Positions 27,983-53,004 of a stretch of 64,000 nucleotides of DNA are shown piece by piece. Both the position numbers and the translations under genes were made by a program. Source of the DNA: an uncultured bacterium (GTDB lineage Bacteria > Poribacteria > WGA-4E > WGA-3G); contig CAZZBB010000012.1 of assembly GCA_964652195.1 (NCBI GenBank), positions 36,537 through 100,536 of the forward strand, read 5' to 3'. Position 1 is the first letter of the stretch; every line of letters begins with the position of its first letter. The notes beneath the pieces were generated by a model. That model was not told where the DNA came from, ran no database searches, and worked only from the letters and a program-made list of their open reading frames with translations.

Positions 27983-28845
27983 GTGCTTCTCTTTGTACCG
28001 ACACTTTACCTCTTTTCACCGCCCTATCGTAGTGGCGGGGGATGGACAACCCATGCCACCGCTTTTTTACTCGCCTCCCCTATCGTCATGCTACTGCTAC
28101 GCACCGGACGGTATTTTCTGACACGCACACAGCACCCCTTTGCAAAGGTTGTCACAGAAAAGATGTCCGCACGCGGTATCTCACTGGTTCTCTGTGCCAT
28201 ATGCATCCTCAGCGGAATTGCTTATATCGTGCTTGTGCGGGATACATTTTGCACAGGATACACCAATATCAAGAACACGTATCTAACGCGACGACAGAAC
28301 AAAAACCATTAGATTTTCTAAAAACATACAACGTGACACACATACTTCTCAGTGAAGAAGATGTGCTGAACATCGCTTCTCTGCACACGGATGAACAAGA
28401 CGAATACCTAACTTCTATGGTGAGACTACTGCCACGCTCTTATACCGGCAGTACACATGCCAGATTGATACCGGCACACAAAAAAACGTTGCTCAGTTTT
28501 GTGGAGATCGATTTCTATCACAAACCAACTACCGCCACAGCAAAACTAAAAAACGGTAAAACAGTAAATATCGGATACGTCAAGTCCGATAGCACAGCAG
28601 AGAAAAAAAATGAAAAATACGGGGGAATGCTACATCTATTCGATCCAAAAACACACCAAGAAGCCATATACTACCTATCCCCGCAGATTTGGAATAGTTT
28701 CGCTATCAAACTATTTTTCCGAAACCAATATAGCAAAGCGTTTGTGCCCGTATATCCACAACAAACAGGAAACGCAAAAGTCAAAATATGGGAGATACAG
28801 TATCCGACAGATATAAATGAAAATCTGAAATATCTCGAAAGGTAA
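27983..28845 (+). pseudogene. Probable frameshifted gene (hypothetical membrane protein)
   Basis: ORF 27983-28312 reads as a membrane N-terminus. ORF 28042-28845 is protein-like only after about 28300 (KPLDFLKTYNVTHILLSEEDV...). Its first 80 codons are His/Arg/Cys-rich out-of-frame noise. A +1/-1 shift near 28290-28315 would join the two halves. Confidence 0.35.
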
Positions 28846-30601: not shown

Positions 30602-31183
30602 TTATCGATTTTCAAAGGCAGTAATGTCTGCTTCGTATTGAAGTGTCCAACCAATTTCATCGAGTCCGTTTAGTAGACAGTACTTTTCAAAGTCGCCTAT
30701 CTCAAATGTGTGGGTAGTTCCATCAGGACAAATTACCGATTGTACTTCGAGGTCAATCATCAATTGATAGCCTTCTGTGTCTTGTGCTGCTTTGCTAAGT
30801 TCTGTGATGATATCTGCTGGTAATGAGACCGGTAGGATTCCATTCTTATAGCAATTGTTGCGGAAGATGTCTGCAAAGGAGGGTGCGAGAACGGCTTTAA
30901 ATCCGTATTGCTGAAGTGCCCAGGGGGCATGTTCACGAGAACTACCGCAACCGAAGTTTATTCCAGCGATGAGAATACTGGCGTCAGCATACTTGGGTTG
31001 GTTCAATATAAAATCTGGATTTGGATCACCGTTTTCAAGATACCGCCAATCGTTAAAGAGAAATTCACCGAATCCAGTACGTTCAATTCGTTTTAGGAAT
31101 TGTTTCGGGATAATCTGATCGGTATCAACATTAATTCGGTCAAGAGGTACGACGAATCCAACATGTTCTTTAAATGCTTCCAT
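30602..31183 (-). CDS. leuD: 3-isopropylmalate dehydratase small subunit
   Basis: Shows [17 protein letters not shown] and [12 protein letters not shown]. Confidence 0.9.
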
Positions 31184-31575
31184 TATAACACCTCAATGGG
31201 TTCTTTTCGTTTCCTTTCAGTTTGATCGAAGTCTGTATCGAAACTAATGAGTTGCATCTCATATTTCGCAGCGACAGCGTATTGGTATGCATCGTCAAAG
31301 TCAAGATTGAATTTATCTGCTATGCGTTCCAACGTTTTAAGATCTTCTGGGGATAATGATAGGATGCCAACTCCGTCAACAATTATGTCCTCAAGAAACG
31401 AATTAAAAAGCGTAAAATATTTCAATCGAAACAGAATAATCCCTATAGAATGTAGGGACAGATCCGTTATGTAGATTGTGCTCAAGTCGTTAATTTGTAA
31501 GAATGATTGGACATCATCCTTTTTGTCTTGTCCCAACAAAGCTTCAAGGAAGATGTTAGTATCTGCGAGGTACAC
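31183..31575 (-). CDS. PIN-domain toxin (VapC-like)
   Basis: [12 protein letters not shown] fits the PIN N-terminal Asp motif. A GTG start at 31575 follows GGAGG and overlaps the antitoxin stop as TAGTG; the ORF track extends to 31656. Its stop overlaps the leuD start. Confidence 0.6.
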
Positions 31576-31778
31576 TATTCCCTCCAATCTGACGCTTTTT
31601 TCTGAAGTTCGAGGGCTGTAAACTGGTCTCGAAACGCTTTTAATCCACCAATCCATTCTAAGTTTGGTTTTTTCTTCCGTTTTGAACTTTTTTTTGTATG
31701 TAAGAAATCAATGAAGTGAATGACTTCTTCTTGGAGTTCCGGAGGAAGTTCCCTAATTTTTTCAATGATAGATTCCAT
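31575..31778 (-). CDS. DUF2281-like antitoxin
   Basis: 67 aa. MESIIEKIRELPPELQEEVIHFIDFLHTKK matches the DUF2281 pattern. It is translationally coupled to the downstream PIN gene. Confidence 0.55.
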   Translation of the reverse strand: MESIIEKIRELPPELQEEVIHFIDFLHTKKSSKRKKKPNLEWIGGLKAFRDQFTALELQKKASDWRE

Positions 31779-31817: not shown

Positions 31818-31845
31818 ATTTTAAGCAAGCCTTTGACTTATCCAA
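31818..31845 (-). promoter_or_regulatory. Candidate sigma70-type promoter for the toxin-antitoxin pair
   Basis: Minus strand reads TTGGAT, 16 bp, TAAAAT, with GGAG 8 nt before the antitoxin ATG. The -35 box overlaps the leuC stop. Confidence 0.3.
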
Positions 31846-33238
31846 ACGTTCGTATGTCCACAAAATGTCCTGTTACAGCAGTTGCTGCAGCCATTTGTGG
31901 ACTAACAAGGTGTGTCCTTCCACCTTTACCTTGTCTACCCTCAAAGTTTCTGTTAGATGTGCTTGCACACCTTTGTCCTGGTGTCAGCGTGTCTGGATTC
32001 ATTCCAAGGCACATACTGCATCCTGCTTCTCTCCATTCGAAACCTGCTGATTGGAAGATCTCATCAAGTCCTTCTGCTTCAGCTTGCCGTTTGACGGCTT
32101 GTGAACCAGGCACAACCATTGCACTGACGGTGTCTGCGACCTTTCTACCTTTTGCCACCTCTGCGGCTGCCCGTAAATCACTAATACGAGAGTTGGTACA
32201 ACTACCAATAAAAACTCGATCAACTGGGATGTTGGTTATCGGTGTACCCGGTTTTAAATCCATATATTCTAATGCGTGTTCAGCTGCCCGTTTTTCATCT
32301 TGTGATTCCATTTTATCAGGATCTGGTACCTGTCCAGTAACATCGGTGACCATACCAGGATTTGTACCCCAAGTAATTTGGGGTGCTATATCGGCAGCAT
32401 CAAGAATAAGGGTTTTATCATAGGTTGCCCCGTCATCTGTTGGGAGTTGTTTCCAACGTTCAACTGCAGCATCAAATGCTTCGTCTTTAGGAGCGAAACG
32501 TTTTCCGGCAAGGTATTCATAGGTCGTGTCATCTGGTGCAATCATCCCTGCGCGAGCACCTGCTTCAATTGACATATTACATACAGTCATCCGTTCTTCA
32601 ATGCTAAGGGATCGTATAGTGGAACCTGTGTATTCAACTACAGCGCCATTTCCTCCATCAATACCGATATGTCCGATAATAGAGAGGATGATGTCTTTTG
32701 CTGTTACCCCATAAGGGAGTGTGCCGTCAACCCGGATTTCAAAGGTTTCTGATTTTTGTTGTAGTAAGCATTGTGTCGCAAGGACATGTTCAATTTCACT
32801 TGTTCCGATACCGAAAGCGAGTGCTCCTAAGGCACCATGTGTTGAGGTGTGGCTATCACCGCATACAATTGTCATGCCGGGTTGAGTGATGCCGAGTTCT
32901 GGACCAATGACGTGGACGATTCCTTGATCGGGACTGTTGATGTCGTAGAGAGGAATGTCAAACTCTTTACAGTTTTGTGATAGAGTCTCCATCTGCTTGG
33001 CAGCGATCAGGTCAGTAATAGGCAGCGACCTATCCGTCGTCGGTACGTTGTGATCCATAGTTGCGAAGGTTAACTCTGGTCTGCGTACTTTTCTGTTGTT
33101 GATTCGTAACCCTTCAAATGCTTGTGGGGATGTGACCTCGTGTACAAGGTGTGTGTCAATATATAGTATGGGAACTTCGTCTTCGGATGCTCGGACGAGA
33201 TGTGTGTCCCATATTTTTTCGTACATTGTTTTTTTCAT
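31838..33238 (-). CDS. leuC: 3-isopropylmalate dehydratase large subunit
   Basis: 466 aa with an aconitase-family Fe-S ligand region ([18 protein letters not shown]). Confidence 0.9.
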
Positions 33239-50151: not shown

Positions 50152-50529
50152 CGTAAAGTCTCCTAAGCGTCCAATTAAACTGAAACTTGAAGTCTATTAA
50201 TTTTTAGTGCAATAAATTTGTCCACATTGTCCTATGATTCTGTCAATATGAACATAATATTTATTGATATGAAAATCCGTTCTTCTATTATCTATGATAC
50301 TTAAAATTAAGATGATATCCATTTGAGATCTTGTTATCAATCAAGTTAATTCTTTATTTATTATGTACAGAGCAAATTCTGTGCCAATATTTAGTACTTC
50401 CAATATGATTTCCATAATATTGCTACTAAATTCTGTATATTTTAGAAACATCATTATTTATTACACTCAGTTTAAATCAAACAAACAATTAGAGTGTGTA
50501 TGGCAACGGGGGTAATTATAACAGAAGGA

Positions 50530-50563
50530 CAATCTCGCTTAAAGCAACCTTTAAGCGAGATTG
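50530..50563. promoter_or_regulatory. Perfect 15-bp-stem palindrome CAATCTCGCTTAAAG-CAAC-CTTTAAGCGAGATTG
   Basis: Seen directly. It lies between the alpha-2-macroglobulin operon start and the Cyc2-like gene end. No T-tract follows on either strand. Confidence 0.3.
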
Positions 50564-50791
50564 TTTGGTGGAATGTCAGGTAGTTAGTATATTACTAAAA
50601 TCGGGTAGATTTGTAAGAAAATGCTATCATGTGTAAAAAATAACACACTCAACTATTTTCTTACTTACATGAATGTGTAAGGTGTATTCTACAATTGTGC
50701 TTAAGGGAGCACCTACAGAGGTTATATAAGAAAAAACATAGATTTCAAACATCATTTCTTATATTCAACTTCCGATACATTTATTTATGAA

Positions 50792-52009
50792 TTAAAACCA
50801 GAAATGAGACATTAGAATGAGTTGATTTGTCCCTTTGAGTTGTCGTAATTCACTTTTACTTGAGATCTTCTCATCTGGCAAGCGATCATTGTTTGGTAGG
50901 TTTGCCCAGTAAAATAGTGAAATAGCCCCGTTTTCCATAAAATTGTATTTGGCAGTAAATGTAATTCGCTTACCTGCATCCCCTAATACCATTCTATCAG
51001 GATCAAATAAACCGTAACGACCAGATAGTGATAACTGGGGAAAGAGTCGATATTTGGCACCAAAATAATACCCTTTAGAATCGACAGTATCGTCTGCAAA
51101 AGACAGTACTTCACCACTATTACCAAAATTGAATTCACCTTCCAAACTGAGATCACCGAATGAGGCAGTCAAGAAAGCACCAAGTACTCGTTCCCACTCT
51201 TCATTAGGTTTTTCTAACATACATGAAATACCTGCACGGATTGGACCGAGTTGTCCACCGAATGTTCCAAGAGATCCATTGGCGGTGTTATTCCTCGCAT
51301 TGAAAAAAGCTGCATTGTAGAAAATTTTTCCATAACTACCCCCTGCTTCGAGGCCGACATCACGTTTATTTGAACCTAAATCGTAACCTTCTCTCACGAG
51401 TATATTATGATCTTTTTGTTTAATGCCGAATGGTAGTCGAAATTGTCCAACTCTAACGTAAAGATGTTTAGGAATCGCATCAACAGTTGCAAAGGCATTT
51501 AATGTAGTACCAACATTATTCGATACGGTTAACCGGATGTTTTCTGAGGCTTGCGCGTTAAATGTAACTTCTGCTTGCATGAGAAAAAATCTATCAACAG
51601 AAGAATGGCATGAGGTACAGCCTGCTCTTGTTCCTTCTTCTTCATCAACATGGGTGGTTTTGATAAATGCTGTCTGGAGATCGAGTGAAGTGGTTATTTG
51701 TTTGATTAACTCCTTTGTTTCTTCTGTCACAGCCTCTATATCAAAGTCTTCAGGGAATTCAAAATAGTTTTCTTCGAAAATCTCACCAATGCGATTTCGA
51801 GGTCCACCACCCGCAGGATCTATATGACAGAAAGTGCAATCCTTATTTAATTCGGCTGCAAATTCTGGTCTGGCTTCGGCAGAGTTAATCATGAATATGC
51901 TAATCAATACAATTGATAGAAATGTCAATATTAACAATTTTGGAATATTGAATTGCTTCATATTTTTTCGAGGAAAAAGCATATTCAATTTGGTAGAATA
52001 AAATTCCAT
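50792..52009 (-). CDS. Cyc2-like fused c-type cytochrome / outer-membrane beta-barrel protein with two CXXCH motifs
   Basis: AAGGAG lies 6 nt before ATG 52009. A signal peptide is followed immediately by CTFCH, with a second CTSCH about 90 aa later. The rest is beta-strand-patterned (RITFTAKYNF, YYFGAKYRLF) and ends in the aromatic residue ...HFWF. Confidence 0.55.
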   Translation of the reverse strand: MEFYSTKLNMLFPRKNMKQFNIPKLLILTFLSIVLISIFMINSAEARPEFAAELNKDCTFCHIDPAGGGPRNRIGEIFEENYFEFPEDFDIEAVTEETKELIKQITTSLDLQTAFIKTTHVDEEEGTRAGCTSCHSSVDRFFLMQAEVTFNAQASENIRLTVSNNVGTTLNAFATVDAIPKHLYVRVGQFRLPFGIKQKDHNILVREGYDLGSNKRDVGLEAGGSYGKIFYNAAFFNARNNTANGSLGTFGGQLGPIRAGISCMLEKPNEEWERVLGAFLTASFGDLSLEGEFNFGNSGEVLSFADDTVDSKGYYFGAKYRLFPQLSLSGRYGLFDPDRMVLGDAGKRITFTAKYNFMENGAISLFYWANLPNNDRLPDEKISSKSELRQLKGTNQLILMSHFWF

Positions 52010-52066
52010 AGGCTTACTCCTTATACTGTCAATTAGGCAAGGTTTTATTGCAATCTATAGTTGACA

Positions 52067-52654
52067 TCAATCAAGTGCAGTAAAAACATAGTCCATATCT
52101 TTAACTCTGGCATGGCAACCCCAACATACACGGTCTCGGGCTAAGATTGTAAAATCATCATCAGGAGCACCTCTTGTGTATTCAATAAACTCCCAATCAT
52201 TATGATCAGGATCGCTACCAGCAACTTTACGCATAATTGCAATCAAACCGATGTAGTCTTTATTAGGTCTGGAAGCTTCTTTTACAACAATACTTCCATC
52301 TGGGTATGGAAATGTCTGTTCTCCATCTGGTGCAATTACTTCTCGGTCTTGATTAACATATACGTTTTTTGTACCATTATGCGGGTCACCACCAGGAACA
52401 GGGGGTATAGGTTCTGCATTCAATTTAAGCCATTTCTCATAGCCTGCAGTATAATCAGGTAGTCCCGGTAGTGCAACAATTGTTTCTTCAGGTTGTTGAA
52501 CTTCTTGGTTATTCACTCCATTGTCAGTTTCCTGGACAAGTTCCTCTATCTGGTGTTCTTCCACACAGGAAGTGAACAGTAGACCAGCAATTAGAACTGA
52601 TACAATACATTGTATTGTATTTAGGAAATGGGGAGTATGTTTTCGGTTATTCAT
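52067..52654 (-). CDS. Monoheme c-type cytochrome lipoprotein with C-terminal CXXCH (cytochrome P460 / c'-beta-like arrangement)
   Basis: Signal then lipobox LFTSC. A single CWGCH lies 15 aa from the C-terminus, as in the P460/c'-beta family (recall-based). Size is 195 aa. Confidence 0.45.
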   Translation of the reverse strand: MNNRKHTPHFLNTIQCIVSVLIAGLLFTSCVEEHQIEELVQETDNGVNNQEVQQPEETIVALPGLPDYTAGYEKWLKLNAEPIPPVPGGDPHNGTKNVYVNQDREVIAPDGEQTFPYPDGSIVVKEASRPNKDYIGLIAIMRKVAGSDPDHNDWEFIEYTRGAPDDDFTILARDRVCWGCHARVKDMDYVFTALD

Positions 52655-53004
52655 AACTTTCTCCTTAGATGAATATGATTTTAGTATATATTAAACTTGT
52701 AAGCTATACAATACATTAATTCGTTTGTCGATAGTAAAATATAGAAAAACTTAATACCTACGGGGAATAATCTCCGGTTTTATAGATAGAATTGGAACCT
52801 ATAAAACCGCAATACTTATGTGACACCTAACGACAAAAAGGACTTATCATATTACATTTATTTTTTTATACCAAAATGATTTAAATTGTTGTAATATTAT
52901 CATCTGTTATTTAGTAAAGTCAGTATACGAATTGAATCAAAGACTAAACGAAACATTAATTATCATATATGAAACGAACTAACATGTGAATAAAGGAGAA
53001 TTGG

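What the first reader, a model, noticed from the sequence alone, without database searches (positions are those of the whole stretch)
50792..52654. Cyc2-like diheme cytochrome/porin fusion next to a monoheme cytochrome lipoprotein: candidate outer-membrane electron-transfer module
The 405-aa protein has a signal peptide, a CXXCH immediately after it (as in the Cyc2 iron oxidases) and a second CXXCH about 90 residues later. A beta-barrel-like C-terminus follows and ends in an aromatic residue. Known Cyc2 proteins are monoheme, so a diheme fused cytochrome-porin would be a distinct variant. The adjacent 195-aa lipoprotein has one C-terminal CWGCH, an arrangement that resembles P460 / c'-beta. 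Together they suggest a periplasm-to-surface redox conduit, for example for Fe(II) oxidation or extracellular electron transfer.
Basis: partly seen in the sequence, partly recalled or inferred. Interest (0 to 1): 0.75.

Follow-up and report, generated by a model that had tools for sequence, protein, structure and literature searches.

The report
Two-haem Cyc2-like outer-membrane cytochrome-porin
A Poribacteria genome encodes an outer-membrane pore fused to a cytochrome that carries a second haem site on an outward-facing loop, next to a P460-type haem lipoprotein; it is a two-haem offshoot of an unnamed sister family of the Cyc2 iron oxidase and probably relays electrons across the outer membrane.

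Summary
Two co-directional minus-strand genes encode a 195-aa lipoprotein (one C-terminal CWGCH) and a 405-aa secreted protein with CTFCH (58-62) and CTSCH (131-135). The motifs are 73 residues apart, not about 90.

It belongs instead (227 bits) to a large unnamed sister family with the signature CxxCH-[VI][ND]PxGGGxRN, which is almost entirely monohaem. The second CXXCH is an insertion in the beta1-beta2 loop, extracellular by topology. It marks a single clade and is invariant in Poribacteria.

The 195-aa protein is a cytochrome P460-family member with Lys at the haem cross-link position.

A P460 gene is linked to the dihaem gene in two different gene orders. It occurs in 0 of 120 canonical Cyc2 loci and 0 of 33 monohaem sister loci. 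Other dihaem relatives sit beside a Rieske/cytochrome b operon or a pentahaem cytochrome.

The electron-relay function and its direction are inferred, not shown. Verdict: a new variant of a known kind.

The parts
52962..52990 (-). Promoter-like site (TTCACA-17-TATGAT) upstream of the two-gene unit
   Evidence: It matches 10 of 12 positions, but the count of such sites in the region is not above the shuffled expectation, so this is weak evidence.
52067..52654 (-). Gene for the 195-aa cytochrome P460-family lipoprotein
   Evidence: ORF. Pfam PF16694 E 3.4e-12, 47.3 bits against a cut-off of 27. Best PDB sequence matches are McCP-beta (6hih, 7zqz) at E 4e-7 and P460 (6hiu) at E 0.012. Conserved at 64-87% identity in 120 listed homologues, several of them named Poribacteria.
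52565..52654 (-). Lipoprotein signal peptide (residues 1-30, lipobox FTSC, Cys30; Val at +2)
   Evidence: Lipobox-like motifs ([LFI][TAI][SA]C) are found in 115 of 120 homologues.
52280..52282 (-). Lys125 codon, at the position of the haem-lysine cross-link of cytochromes P460
   Evidence: In the alignment, K125 falls on residue 61 of McCP-beta. That residue equals Lys70 (NeP460), Lys78 (McP460) and Lys106 (NsP460) according to Table 2 of PMC11928373. The motif PDGS[IV]V[VI]KE occurs in 100 of 120 homologues.
52112..52126 (-). CWGCH haem c attachment motif of the P460-family protein (residues 177-181)
   Evidence: CW[GNSV]CH in 111 of 120 homologues.
50792..52009 (-). Gene for the 405-aa dihaem cytochrome-porin fusion (Cyc2 sister family)
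   Evidence: ORF. Homologues. Family assignment. Structure.
51872..52009 (-). Signal peptide (residues 1-46; cleavage probably AEA|RP)
   Evidence: Predicted by eye; no dedicated signal-peptide predictor was available.
51698..51871 (-). N-terminal cytochrome region (residues 47-104), with ARPEFA...C58TFCH62-IDPAGGGPRN-RIGEIFEENYF
   Evidence: P48 to D90 is almost entirely invariant in Poribacteria. pLDDT is 79-91. The region aligns with the Cyc2 cytochrome region AxPxFAR..CxxCH..N.FG..F..NGY.
51824..51838 (-). Haem motif 1, CTFCH (residues 58-62)
   Evidence: Invariant in all 104 sequences of alignment A2.
50795..51697 (-). 16-strand beta-barrel (residues 105-405) ending in FWF
51593..51655 (-). 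Loop L1 between strands 1 and 2 (residues 119-139), carrying the inserted second haem motif; extracellular by standard barrel topology
   Evidence: loop between strands 105-118 and 140-153; pLDDT below 50 at 129-134; the Cys columns are gaps in all 92 monohaem relatives.
51605..51619 (-). Haem motif 2, CTSCH (residues 131-135)
51365..51436 (-). Loop L3 (residues 192-215), LPFGIKQKDHNILVREGYDLGSNKRD, with the conserved Asp200-His201
   Evidence: Invariant in Poribacteria. His201 is conserved in 69 of 92 monohaem relatives and in all dihaem ones. It is a candidate axial ligand; this is an inference.
50529..50564 (-). Terminator-like hairpin (16-bp stem) downstream of the porin gene
   Evidence: No terminator-like site lies in the 57-nt gap between the two genes; one weak site (52211-52191) lies inside the P460 coding sequence.

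Best explanation
Shown:
- The two genes form a probable bicistronic unit in a Poribacteria genome.
- The downstream product is exported. It consists of a short N-terminal c-type cytochrome region fused to a 16-strand OprP-like outer-membrane barrel, the architecture of the iron oxidase Cyc2, to which it is remotely homologous.
- It belongs to an unnamed, mostly monohaem sister family of Cyc2.
- It differs from nearly all of that family by a CXXCH inserted into the loop between strands 1 and 2.
- The upstream product is a lipoprotein of the cytochrome P460 family with Lys at the cross-link position.

Inferred:
- Both CXXCH motifs carry haem c.
- Haem 1 plugs the periplasmic mouth or lumen, as proposed for Cyc2.
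- Haem 2 sits at the outer mouth on loop L1.
- The single polypeptide is therefore a two-step electron relay across the outer membrane, able to react at the cell surface rather than only with ions that enter the pore.
- The P460-type lipoprotein is its periplasmic redox partner.

Direction of flow is not settled. Known P460 haems lie at -300 to -424 mV and need an external oxidant, whereas Cyc2 lies near +208 mV. If the two products are partners, my preferred reading is that electrons from periplasmic oxidation of hydroxylamine or NO by the P460 protein pass to haem 1, then to haem 2, and out to an extracellular acceptor.

Confidence by layer: architecture and family assignment about 0.9; trans-membrane electron relay about 0.65; P460 partnership with outward flow about 0.35. 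The overall figure given is for the statement as a whole.
For: Architecture:
- AF2 model with pLDDT 85.4, pTM 0.80 and 16 strands.

Homology to Cyc2:
- hhalign gives 97.9% probability, E 3.7e-13.

Sister family:
- 226.6 bits against an HMM of 91 monohaem relatives.
- Family-to-family hhalign gives 99.2%.

Second haem:
- It is an insertion in L1, absent from 92 monohaem relatives.
- It is invariant in Poribacteria.
- All 12 dihaem sequences form one neighbour-joining clade.

Partner:
- Pfam P460 hit. Lys125 falls on the cross-link position.
- A P460 gene lies immediately upstream in every core Poribacteria locus that has upstream flank.
- In L142 a different gene order again places a lipoprotein with two tandem P460 domains, plus a SoxA/TsdA-type cytochrome c and a T9SS-sorted CXXCH protein, next to a dihaem gene of 46% identity.
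- No P460 ORF occurs in 120 canonical Cyc2 loci or 33 monohaem sister loci.

Redox context elsewhere:
- A Rieske plus cytochrome b/c operon directly downstream.
- A pentahaem cytochrome upstream.
- A membrane-anchored cytochrome c directly upstream.

Potentials come from PMC11928373 and PMC8406198.
Against: - There are no functional or expression data.
- Haem attachment, axial ligands and the haem-haem distance were not determined.
- In core Poribacteria the whole neighbourhood (ftsY, ECF sigma factor, alpha-2-macroglobulin) is syntenic. Adjacency there is therefore weak evidence of coupling.
- Many dihaem loci have no haem-protein neighbour.
- The P460 homologue has Gly146 where active P460s have Glu or Asp, and His92 at the cap position, so it may not oxidise hydroxylamine.
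- The only experimentally validated function in the wider family is inward electron flow from Fe(II).
- Transfer of a loop carrying covalently bound haem to the outer face by the barrel-assembly machinery has no precedent known to me.
Confidence: 0.45

Rival explanations
1. Inward flow, as in Cyc2. The protein oxidises extracellular Fe(II) or another external reductant at haem 2 and passes electrons through haem 1 to periplasmic carriers and the respiratory chain. The P460-type protein is either the acceptor (for example reducing bound NO) or unrelated.
For: - Homology and shared architecture with Cyc2, whose Fe(II) oxidase activity is validated (PMC8406198).
- A dihaem relative sits directly upstream of a Rieske/cytochrome b-c operon, as expected for an iron-oxidation chain.
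Against: - Known P460 haems (-300 to -424 mV) could not accept electrons from a Cyc2-like haem near +200 mV.
- Poribacteria are described as aerobic heterotrophs of oxic seawater and sponges, where Fe(II) is scarce (my own knowledge).
- The Cyc2-defining residues around haem 1 differ, so the potential and the substrate may differ.
Confidence: 0.28
2. The two genes are neighbours only by conserved synteny. The P460-type lipoprotein independently binds or detoxifies NO or hydroxylamine. The cytochrome-porin has a separate role.
For: - In core Poribacteria the entire region from the ABC-F gene to PBP1C is collinear.
- Most non-Poribacteria dihaem loci lack a P460 gene.
- Cytochromes c'-beta and P460 act without a dedicated membrane partner in known systems.
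Against: - The genes are co-directional, 57 nt apart, with no terminator-like site in the gap between them.
- In L142, P460 domains recur beside a dihaem gene in a different order.
- No P460 ORF occurs in 153 Cyc2 or monohaem loci.
Confidence: 0.17
3. The second CXXCH does not bind haem. It could be a disulfide or a metal site on an external loop. The protein would then be a monohaem member of its family, or simply a porin.
For: - L1 is modelled with low confidence.
- A haem on an external barrel loop has no precedent known to me.
- One clade member, P0251, has lost the motif.
Against: - The complete C-x-x-C-H, including the histidine, is kept in all 12 clade members at 26-88% identity.
- It is also kept in 17 further metagenomic loci with spacing of 72-77 residues. 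A disulfide would not need the histidine.
Confidence: 0.07

Closest known systems
Cyc2 fused cytochrome-porin Fe(II) oxidase (Acidithiobacillus ferrooxidans Cyc2; Mariprofundus Cyc2PV-1; clusters 1-3 of McAllister 2020 and Keffer 2021)
   Same: - Signal peptide, then a short cytochrome region with CXXCH, then a 16-strand OprO/OprP-like barrel, about 400 aa in all.
- Shared A-x-P-x-F-A, 10 residues from the proline to the first cysteine.
- Shared N-x-[FI]-G-x-x-F-x-x-N-[GY]-[YF] after the haem motif.
- Significant profile homology.
   Different: - Two CXXCH instead of one, the extra one in barrel loop L1.
- R[Q/K][T/Y] is replaced by A-E-L.
- PXL is replaced by D-P-A-G-G-G-P-R-N.
- It scores 45 bits against a Cyc2 HMM but 227 bits against the sister family.
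- The host is a heterotrophic candidate phylum, and the neighbour is a P460-type protein rather than Cyc1 or rusticyanin.
Unnamed monohaem sister family of Cyc2 (signature A-L-P-R-F-A-A-R-T-G-x-x-C-x-x-C-H-[VI]-[ND]-P-x-G-G-G-x-R-N), found here in MAGs labelled Ignavibacteria, Deltaproteobacteria and Pseudomonadota; all members annotated as hypothetical
   Same: The whole length aligns (226.6 bits; hhalign 100%, E 1e-49). The haem-1 signature, the conserved D-H in loop L3 and the x-H-x-F-F type C-terminus are shared.
   Different: 104 of 113 full-length representatives have one CXXCH. The L1 insertion with the second CXXCH defines the clade to which the window protein belongs.
Cytochrome P460 (NeP460, McP460, NsP460) and cytochrome c'-beta (McCP-beta)
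   Same: The 195-aa protein matches Pfam PF16694 and has the C-terminal CXXCH. Lys125 aligns with the cross-linking Lys.
   Different: - It is a lipoprotein with an acidic linker of about 35 residues.
- His92 sits at the capping position (Phe or Arg in known members).
- Gly146 sits where active P460s have Glu96 or Asp102.
- It is encoded beside an outer-membrane cytochrome-porin.
Porin-cytochrome complexes MtrCAB, MtoAB/PioAB and Geobacter Pcc
   Same: Haems are carried through an outer-membrane barrel to move electrons between the periplasm and the outside.

Membership tests
Cyc2 in the strict sense (definition of Keffer et al. 2021, PMC8406198) | N-terminal signal peptide | tested here: met
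   Hydrophobic core at residues 25-39 followed by AEA|RP. Judged by inspection, without a dedicated predictor.
Cyc2 in the strict sense (definition of Keffer et al. 2021, PMC8406198) | A single CXXCH haem motif near the N-terminus | tested here: not met
   There are two motifs, at 58-62 and 131-135. All 120 canonical Cyc2-motif proteins retrieved have exactly one.
Cyc2 in the strict sense (definition of Keffer et al. 2021, PMC8406198) | A-X-P-X-F-A-R-[Q/K]-[T/Y] upstream of CXXCH (used as an inclusion filter) | tested here: not met
   The window protein has A-R-P-E-F-A-A-E-L. Only A-x-P-x-F-A and the spacing to the cysteine are kept. None of 113 full-length relatives has the strict motif.
Cyc2 in the strict sense (definition of Keffer et al. 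2021, PMC8406198) | P-X-L about 4 residues after CXXCH | tested here: not met
   The sequence after His62 is I-D-P-A-G-G-G-P-R-N.
Cyc2 in the strict sense (definition of Keffer et al. 2021, PMC8406198) | 16-strand porin with structural similarity to OprO/OprP; length at least 365 aa | tested here: met
Cyc2 in the strict sense (definition of Keffer et al. 2021, PMC8406198) | Fe(II) oxidase activity; score above the FeGenie Cyc2 HMM cut-offs | not testable with these tools
   No assay was possible and the FeGenie HMMs were not available. Pfam and NCBIfam contain no model even for canonical Cyc2.
Cyc2 superfamily (remote homology) | Significant full-length profile similarity to canonical Cyc2 | tested here: met
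   45.2 bits, against controls of at most 9.7 bits. hhalign 97.9%, E 3.7e-13, 315 aligned columns.
Unnamed Cyc2 sister family (CxxCH-[VI][ND]PxGGGxRN) | Profile match and the signature around haem 1 | tested here: met
   226.6 bits against an HMM built without any dihaem or Poribacteria sequence. The signature CTFCHIDPAGGGPRN is present.
Cytochrome P460 (195-aa protein) | P460/c'-beta fold with a C-terminal CXXCH | tested here: met
   PF16694 at 47.3 bits, above the cut-off of 27. PDB sequence matches.
Cytochrome P460 (195-aa protein) | Lys at the haem cross-link position | tested here: met
   K125 aligns with residue 61 of McCP-beta, which corresponds to Lys70, Lys78 and Lys106 of P460s. It is conserved in 100 of 120 homologues. 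The cross-link itself cannot be tested here.
Cytochrome P460 (195-aa protein) | Distal carboxylate (Glu96 or Asp102) required for hydroxylamine oxidation | tested here: inconclusive
   Gly146 aligns with Gly82 of McCP-beta. However, a 7-residue deletion follows and D148 and D150 lie nearby.
Cytochrome c'-beta (195-aa protein) | A hydrophobic residue (Phe or Met) in place of the cross-linking Lys, and an aromatic cap | tested here: not met
   The protein has Lys125 and His92 at these positions.
MtrAB / PioAB / Pcc porin-cytochrome complexes | A separate 20- to 26-strand porin plus a separate multihaem cytochrome | tested here: not met

The most novel reading that the evidence does not exclude
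Haem 2 is truly exposed on the cell surface on loop L1. This 405-aa protein would then be the smallest self-contained electron conduit across the outer membrane: one polypeptide and two haems. In Poribacteria it would be the physiological oxidant of a lipoprotein P460 enzyme. Detoxification of hydroxylamine or NO, for example leaking from ammonia oxidisers in sponges, would then be coupled to extracellular electron transfer. This would also supply the so far unidentified natural electron acceptor of a cytochrome P460.
Probability: 0.15. Interest if true: 0.85.

Novelty: new variant of a known kind. Interest (0 to 1): 0.65.

Why it matters
**A missed family.** Cyc2 is the main marker gene for microbial iron oxidation, and it is recognised by a strict N-terminal motif and a single haem. 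This locus shows that a large related family is missed by that definition and by Pfam and NCBIfam. The family has 488 clusters at 50% identity and is annotated as hypothetical throughout.

**A new way to build a conduit.** One clade of that family gained a second haem site on an outward-facing barrel loop. A two-haem fused cytochrome-porin could react at the cell surface instead of requiring the substrate to enter a narrow pore. That changes which substrates such proteins might use.

**Biology of the host.** The protein is conserved at 70% identity or more across Poribacteria, a heterotrophic phylum that includes sponge symbionts. It is linked to P460-type proteins. Both facts point to a constitutive redox function unrelated to lithotrophic iron oxidation. 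They also suggest a testable candidate for the unknown redox partner of cytochromes P460.

Tried and rejected
- **Shallow-alignment model.** The first AlphaFold run used only Poribacteria sequences and was too poor to use (33 sequences, pLDDT 44.8). It was replaced by a 104-sequence alignment.
- **AlphaFold database search.** The afdb50 library was unavailable, so no structural comparison with the AlphaFold model of Cyc2 (B7JAQ7) was possible.
- **Model coordinates.** They are not exposed, so haem-haem distances and axial ligands could not be measured.
- **Profile libraries.**
  - Pfam and NCBIfam gave only sub-threshold porin hits for the 405-aa protein.
  - They also fail on canonical Cyc2, so their silence is uninformative.
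- **PDB sequence search** with the 405-aa protein found nothing.
- **Source names** for 20 relatives were all 'hypothetical protein'.
- **Supplements of Keffer 2021** hold no Cyc2 sequences. Canonical Cyc2 sequences were instead retrieved with a degenerate DNA pattern for the published motif.
Alignment A4 worked.
- **Met144 as haem ligand.** This is judged unlikely. It is conserved, but the alternation of polar residues in strand 2 puts it on the lipid-facing side (inference).
- **Literature searches** for a dihaem Cyc2, Cyc2 in Poribacteria, or P460 in Poribacteria found nothing relevant.
- **Other scans.** Rfam and tRNA scans of the window were empty.
- **ORF 28042-28845**, the only other ORF in the window with a CXXCH, has no signal peptide and no family match. 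It was dismissed.
Full report
**Observation**

- On the minus strand, ORF 52067..52654 (195 aa) is followed after 57 nt by ORF 50792..52009 (405 aa).
- Each ORF has AAGGAG 6-7 nt before its ATG.
- The pair is flanked by 350 bp and 640 bp of AT-rich non-coding DNA.
- A promoter-like site lies at 52990-52962. A 16-bp terminator-like hairpin lies at 50564-50529. No terminator-like site lies in the 57-nt gap between the genes. The promoter count is not above chance, so the operon is probable, not proven.
- The 405-aa protein has a signal-peptide-like N-terminus (..NSAEA|RPEF), CTFCH at 58-62, CTSCH at 131-135 (73 residues apart, not about 90), and ends in FWF.
- The 195-aa protein has a lipobox (FTSC30) and CWGCH at 177-181.
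- Only three of 45 long ORFs in the window contain any CXXCH, and two of them are this pair.

**Organism and conservation**

- The closest homologues (98-70% identity, 340 hits) include proteins named Candidatus Poribacteria. The P460-like neighbour shows the same pattern. The window has 38% G+C.
- In an alignment of 33 Poribacteria homologues both CXXCH motifs are invariant. The segment P48-D90 around haem 1 is almost entirely invariant.
- The neighbourhood is collinear in two other Poribacteria genomes. The order is ABC-F, MarR, ECF sigma factor, ftsY | P460, cytochrome-porin | alpha-2-macroglobulin, PBP1C.

**Structure**

- A first model from the shallow alignment was poor (pLDDT 44.8).
- With 104 sequences, including distant representatives, the model reached pLDDT 85.4 and pTM 0.80.
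- It has 16 strands: 105-118, 140-153, 158-165, 171-179, 183-191, 216-226, 229-238, 243-254, 257-267, 271-284, 287-300, 309-323, 326-336, 346-358, 361-371 and 396-404.
- Long and short connections alternate: long (119-139, 192-215, 372-395) and 2-4 residues. This is the usual pattern of external loops and periplasmic turns.

**Relation to Cyc2**

Keffer et al. define Cyc2 by these features:
- a signal peptide;
- one CXXCH;
- an AXPXFAR[Q/K][T/Y] motif upstream of it, used as an inclusion filter;
- PXL downstream;
- a 16-strand barrel;
- length of at least 365 aa.

I retrieved canonical Cyc2 genes from species-representative genomes with a degenerate DNA pattern for that motif. All 120 loci encode proteins of the form AxPxFAR[QK][TY]GxxCxxCH..PxL[NT]xFGxxFKxNGY. 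They include Acidithiobacillus, Sideroxydans and Gallionella, and each has exactly one CXXCH.

An HMM built from the 91 complete proteins scores the window protein at 45.2 bits over its full length (E 4e-10 for a database of one million sequences). Reversed and shuffled controls reach at most 9.7 bits. The barrel alone gives 21 bits. hhalign of the Poribacteria alignment against the Cyc2 alignment gives 97.9% probability, E 3.7e-13, over 315 columns. The homology is therefore real but remote.

The window protein keeps these Cyc2 features:
- A-x-P-x-F-A;
- the 10-residue distance from the proline to the first cysteine;
- the N-x-[FI]-G-x-x-F-x-x-N-[GY]-[YF] element.

It replaces R[QK][TY] with A-E-L, and PXL with D-P-A-G-G-G-P-R-N. 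It therefore fails the published membership filter.

**The family it belongs to**

- A profile search of 1.84 billion representatives found 488 relatives with E at or below 1e-3.
- Of 113 full-length proteins among the best 150, 104 have one CXXCH directly after the signal peptide. None has the strict Cyc2 motif. Their consensus is A-L-P-R-F-A-A-R-T-G-x-x-C-x-x-C-H-V-N-P-T-G-G-G-M-R-N.
- An HMM of 91 of these monohaem proteins, containing no dihaem or Poribacteria sequence, scores the window protein at 226.6 bits.
- The monohaem family and canonical Cyc2 are related at hhalign 99.2%. However, they cross-score only about 26-29 bits, against 313-351 bits within each family.
- Members are annotated as hypothetical, in MAGs labelled Ignavibacteria, Deltaproteobacteria and Pseudomonadota.
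- No Pfam or NCBIfam model covers this family. None covers canonical Cyc2 either.

**The second haem motif**

- In the 104-sequence alignment the CXXCH at 131-135 lies in an insertion in the loop between strands 1 and 2. The corresponding Cys columns are gaps in all 92 monohaem relatives.
- In a barrel with an even number of strands and a C-terminal aromatic signal, both termini are periplasmic and strand 1 runs outward. This loop is therefore external loop L1. This is an inference from standard barrel topology.
- All 12 proteins with the motif at this spacing form one neighbour-joining clade. The only exception inside the clade is one Poribacteria monohaem protein, P0251, which is probably a secondary loss.
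- A metagenome scan added 17 more loci with spacing of 72-77 residues.
- Members occur in loci of 39-49% G+C and also in loci of 63-64% G+C, so the clade is not confined to one lineage.
- Candidate axial ligands:
  - Asp200-His201 in loop L3, conserved in 69 of 92 monohaem relatives and in all dihaem ones;
  - His120 at the start of L1, present in core Poribacteria only.

**The neighbour**

- The 195-aa protein matches Pfam Cytochrome_P460 (47.3 bits, cut-off 27).
- By sequence it matches solved cytochromes c'-beta (E 4e-7) and P460 (E 0.01).
- In the alignment with McCP-beta:
  - Lys125 falls on residue 61;
  - His92 falls on the capping Phe32;
  - Gly146 falls on Gly82.
- According to Table 2 of PMC11928373, residue 61 corresponds to the cross-linking Lys70, Lys78 and Lys106 of P460s. 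Gly82 corresponds to the catalytic Glu96 or Asp102.
- Lys125 and His92 are conserved in 100 and 103 of 120 homologues respectively.
- By the defining lysine the protein is P460-type, not c'-beta-type. The cap residue is unusual, and the catalytic carboxylate is uncertain.

**Gene neighbourhoods as evidence of function**

- A P460 gene lies immediately upstream of the dihaem gene in every core Poribacteria locus that has upstream flank: L001, L002, L145-L147, L179 and the window.
- Because that whole region is syntenic, an independent case matters more.
- In L142 a dihaem gene of 46% identity is followed by three genes:
  - a SoxA/TsdA-type cytochrome c (Pfam E 8e-19);
  - a lipoprotein with two tandem P460 domains, each with the G-T-I-[LI]-V-K-E lysine and MCNSCH (Pfam E 2e-22);
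  - a CXXCH protein with a type IX secretion sorting tail.
- No P460 ORF was found in 120 canonical Cyc2 loci or in 33 monohaem sister loci.
- Other dihaem relatives lie next to other redox proteins:
  - directly upstream of a Rieske protein and a cytochrome b fused to cytochrome c (L003 and L004);
  - downstream of a pentahaem cytochrome and a DUF1573 lipoprotein (L008);
  - directly downstream of a four-helix membrane protein ending in CSRCH (L150).
- Several loci show no haem-protein neighbour.

**Mechanism**

The architecture, the homology, the insertion and the gene linkage are shown. Everything below is inferred.

- Both motifs carry haem c.
- Haem 1 sits in the periplasmic mouth, as proposed for Cyc2.
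- Haem 2 sits at the outer mouth.
- The protein relays electrons across the outer membrane.

Direction of flow is open. Published potentials are -300 to -424 mV for P460 haems, which need an external oxidant, and +208 mV for Cyc2PV-1. If the two products are partners, the downhill direction is from the P460 protein to the porin haems and outward. The rival is inward flow from Fe(II), as in Cyc2. Homology and the Rieske/cytochrome b context favour that rival. I rate the outward, P460-coupled model slightly higher, but the margin is small.

**Novelty**

Searches of the held literature found no dihaem Cyc2, no Cyc2 assigned to Poribacteria, and no P460 in Poribacteria. The finding is a new variant of a known kind. 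It is a two-haem fused cytochrome-porin within a previously undescribed sister family of Cyc2.

Noticed in passing
L142:172-5809: A metagenomic contig carries a cluster in this order: dihaem cytochrome-porin, SoxA/TsdA-type cytochrome c (159 aa), a lipoprotein with two tandem cytochrome P460 domains (339 aa, both with the cross-link lysine), a CXXCH protein with a type IX secretion sorting tail, and a Temptin-like protein. I do not know of a tandem P460 protein having been described.
   Followed up: partly
L003:6001-9163 (same in L004): In a genome of 64% G+C, a dihaem family member (32% identity) lies 62 nt upstream of a Rieske protein and a cytochrome b with a C-terminal cytochrome c domain. 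This looks like an operon joining the outer-membrane cytochrome to a bc-type complex. The organism is unknown.
   Followed up: partly
L130:6001-7083: A Poribacteria monohaem protein (P0251/P0412, 360 aa) nests inside the dihaem clade and lacks the L1 insertion. It is flanked by transposase fragments (DDE_Tnp_4, DUF4096). This is probably a secondary loss in a mobile or decaying copy.
   Followed up: partly
window:52379-52381 (His92 of the 195-aa protein): The P460-family protein has a conserved His (GDPHNG, 103 of 120 homologues) where known P460 and c'-beta proteins have a capping Phe or Arg. It could be a sixth haem ligand, which would make the protein an electron carrier rather than a gas- or hydroxylamine-binding protein.
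   Followed up: no
window:1462-10640: A plus-strand cluster contains an unassigned 423-aa ORF, a BCCT betaine/choline transporter, TsaD and Sua5/YrdC homologues, a corrinoid (B12-binding) protein, a RACo-type reductive activase and a homocysteine S-methyltransferase-like protein. The transporter plus the corrinoid, activase and methyltransferase genes look like a corrinoid-dependent methyl-transfer (for example glycine betaine demethylation) module.
   Followed up: no
window:42164-50151: An 1812-aa bacterial alpha-2-macroglobulin is followed by a PBP1C-type penicillin-binding protein (Transgly, Transpeptidase, BiPBP_C). This is the known A2M-PBP1C pairing, conserved next to the module in other Poribacteria.
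   Followed up: partly
window:30602-33238: A PIN-domain gene (31183-31656) sits between the large and small aconitase-family subunits (LeuC-like 31838-33238; LeuD-like 30602-31183). Its stop overlaps the start of the LeuD-like gene by one base.
   Followed up: no
window:25500-30000: G+C is higher here (0.43-0.48, against 0.38 for the window) and AT skew is strong (+0.23 at 28-30 kb). The ORFs have no Pfam match (194, 539, 267 and 170 aa). This may be a foreign island.
   Followed up: no
window:14148-20114: A minus-strand run encodes a DUF6785/DUF6784 protein (635 aa), a POTRA-domain protein (640 aa) and a BatA/VWA protein (687 aa). These are envelope-related genes of unknown role.
   Followed up: no
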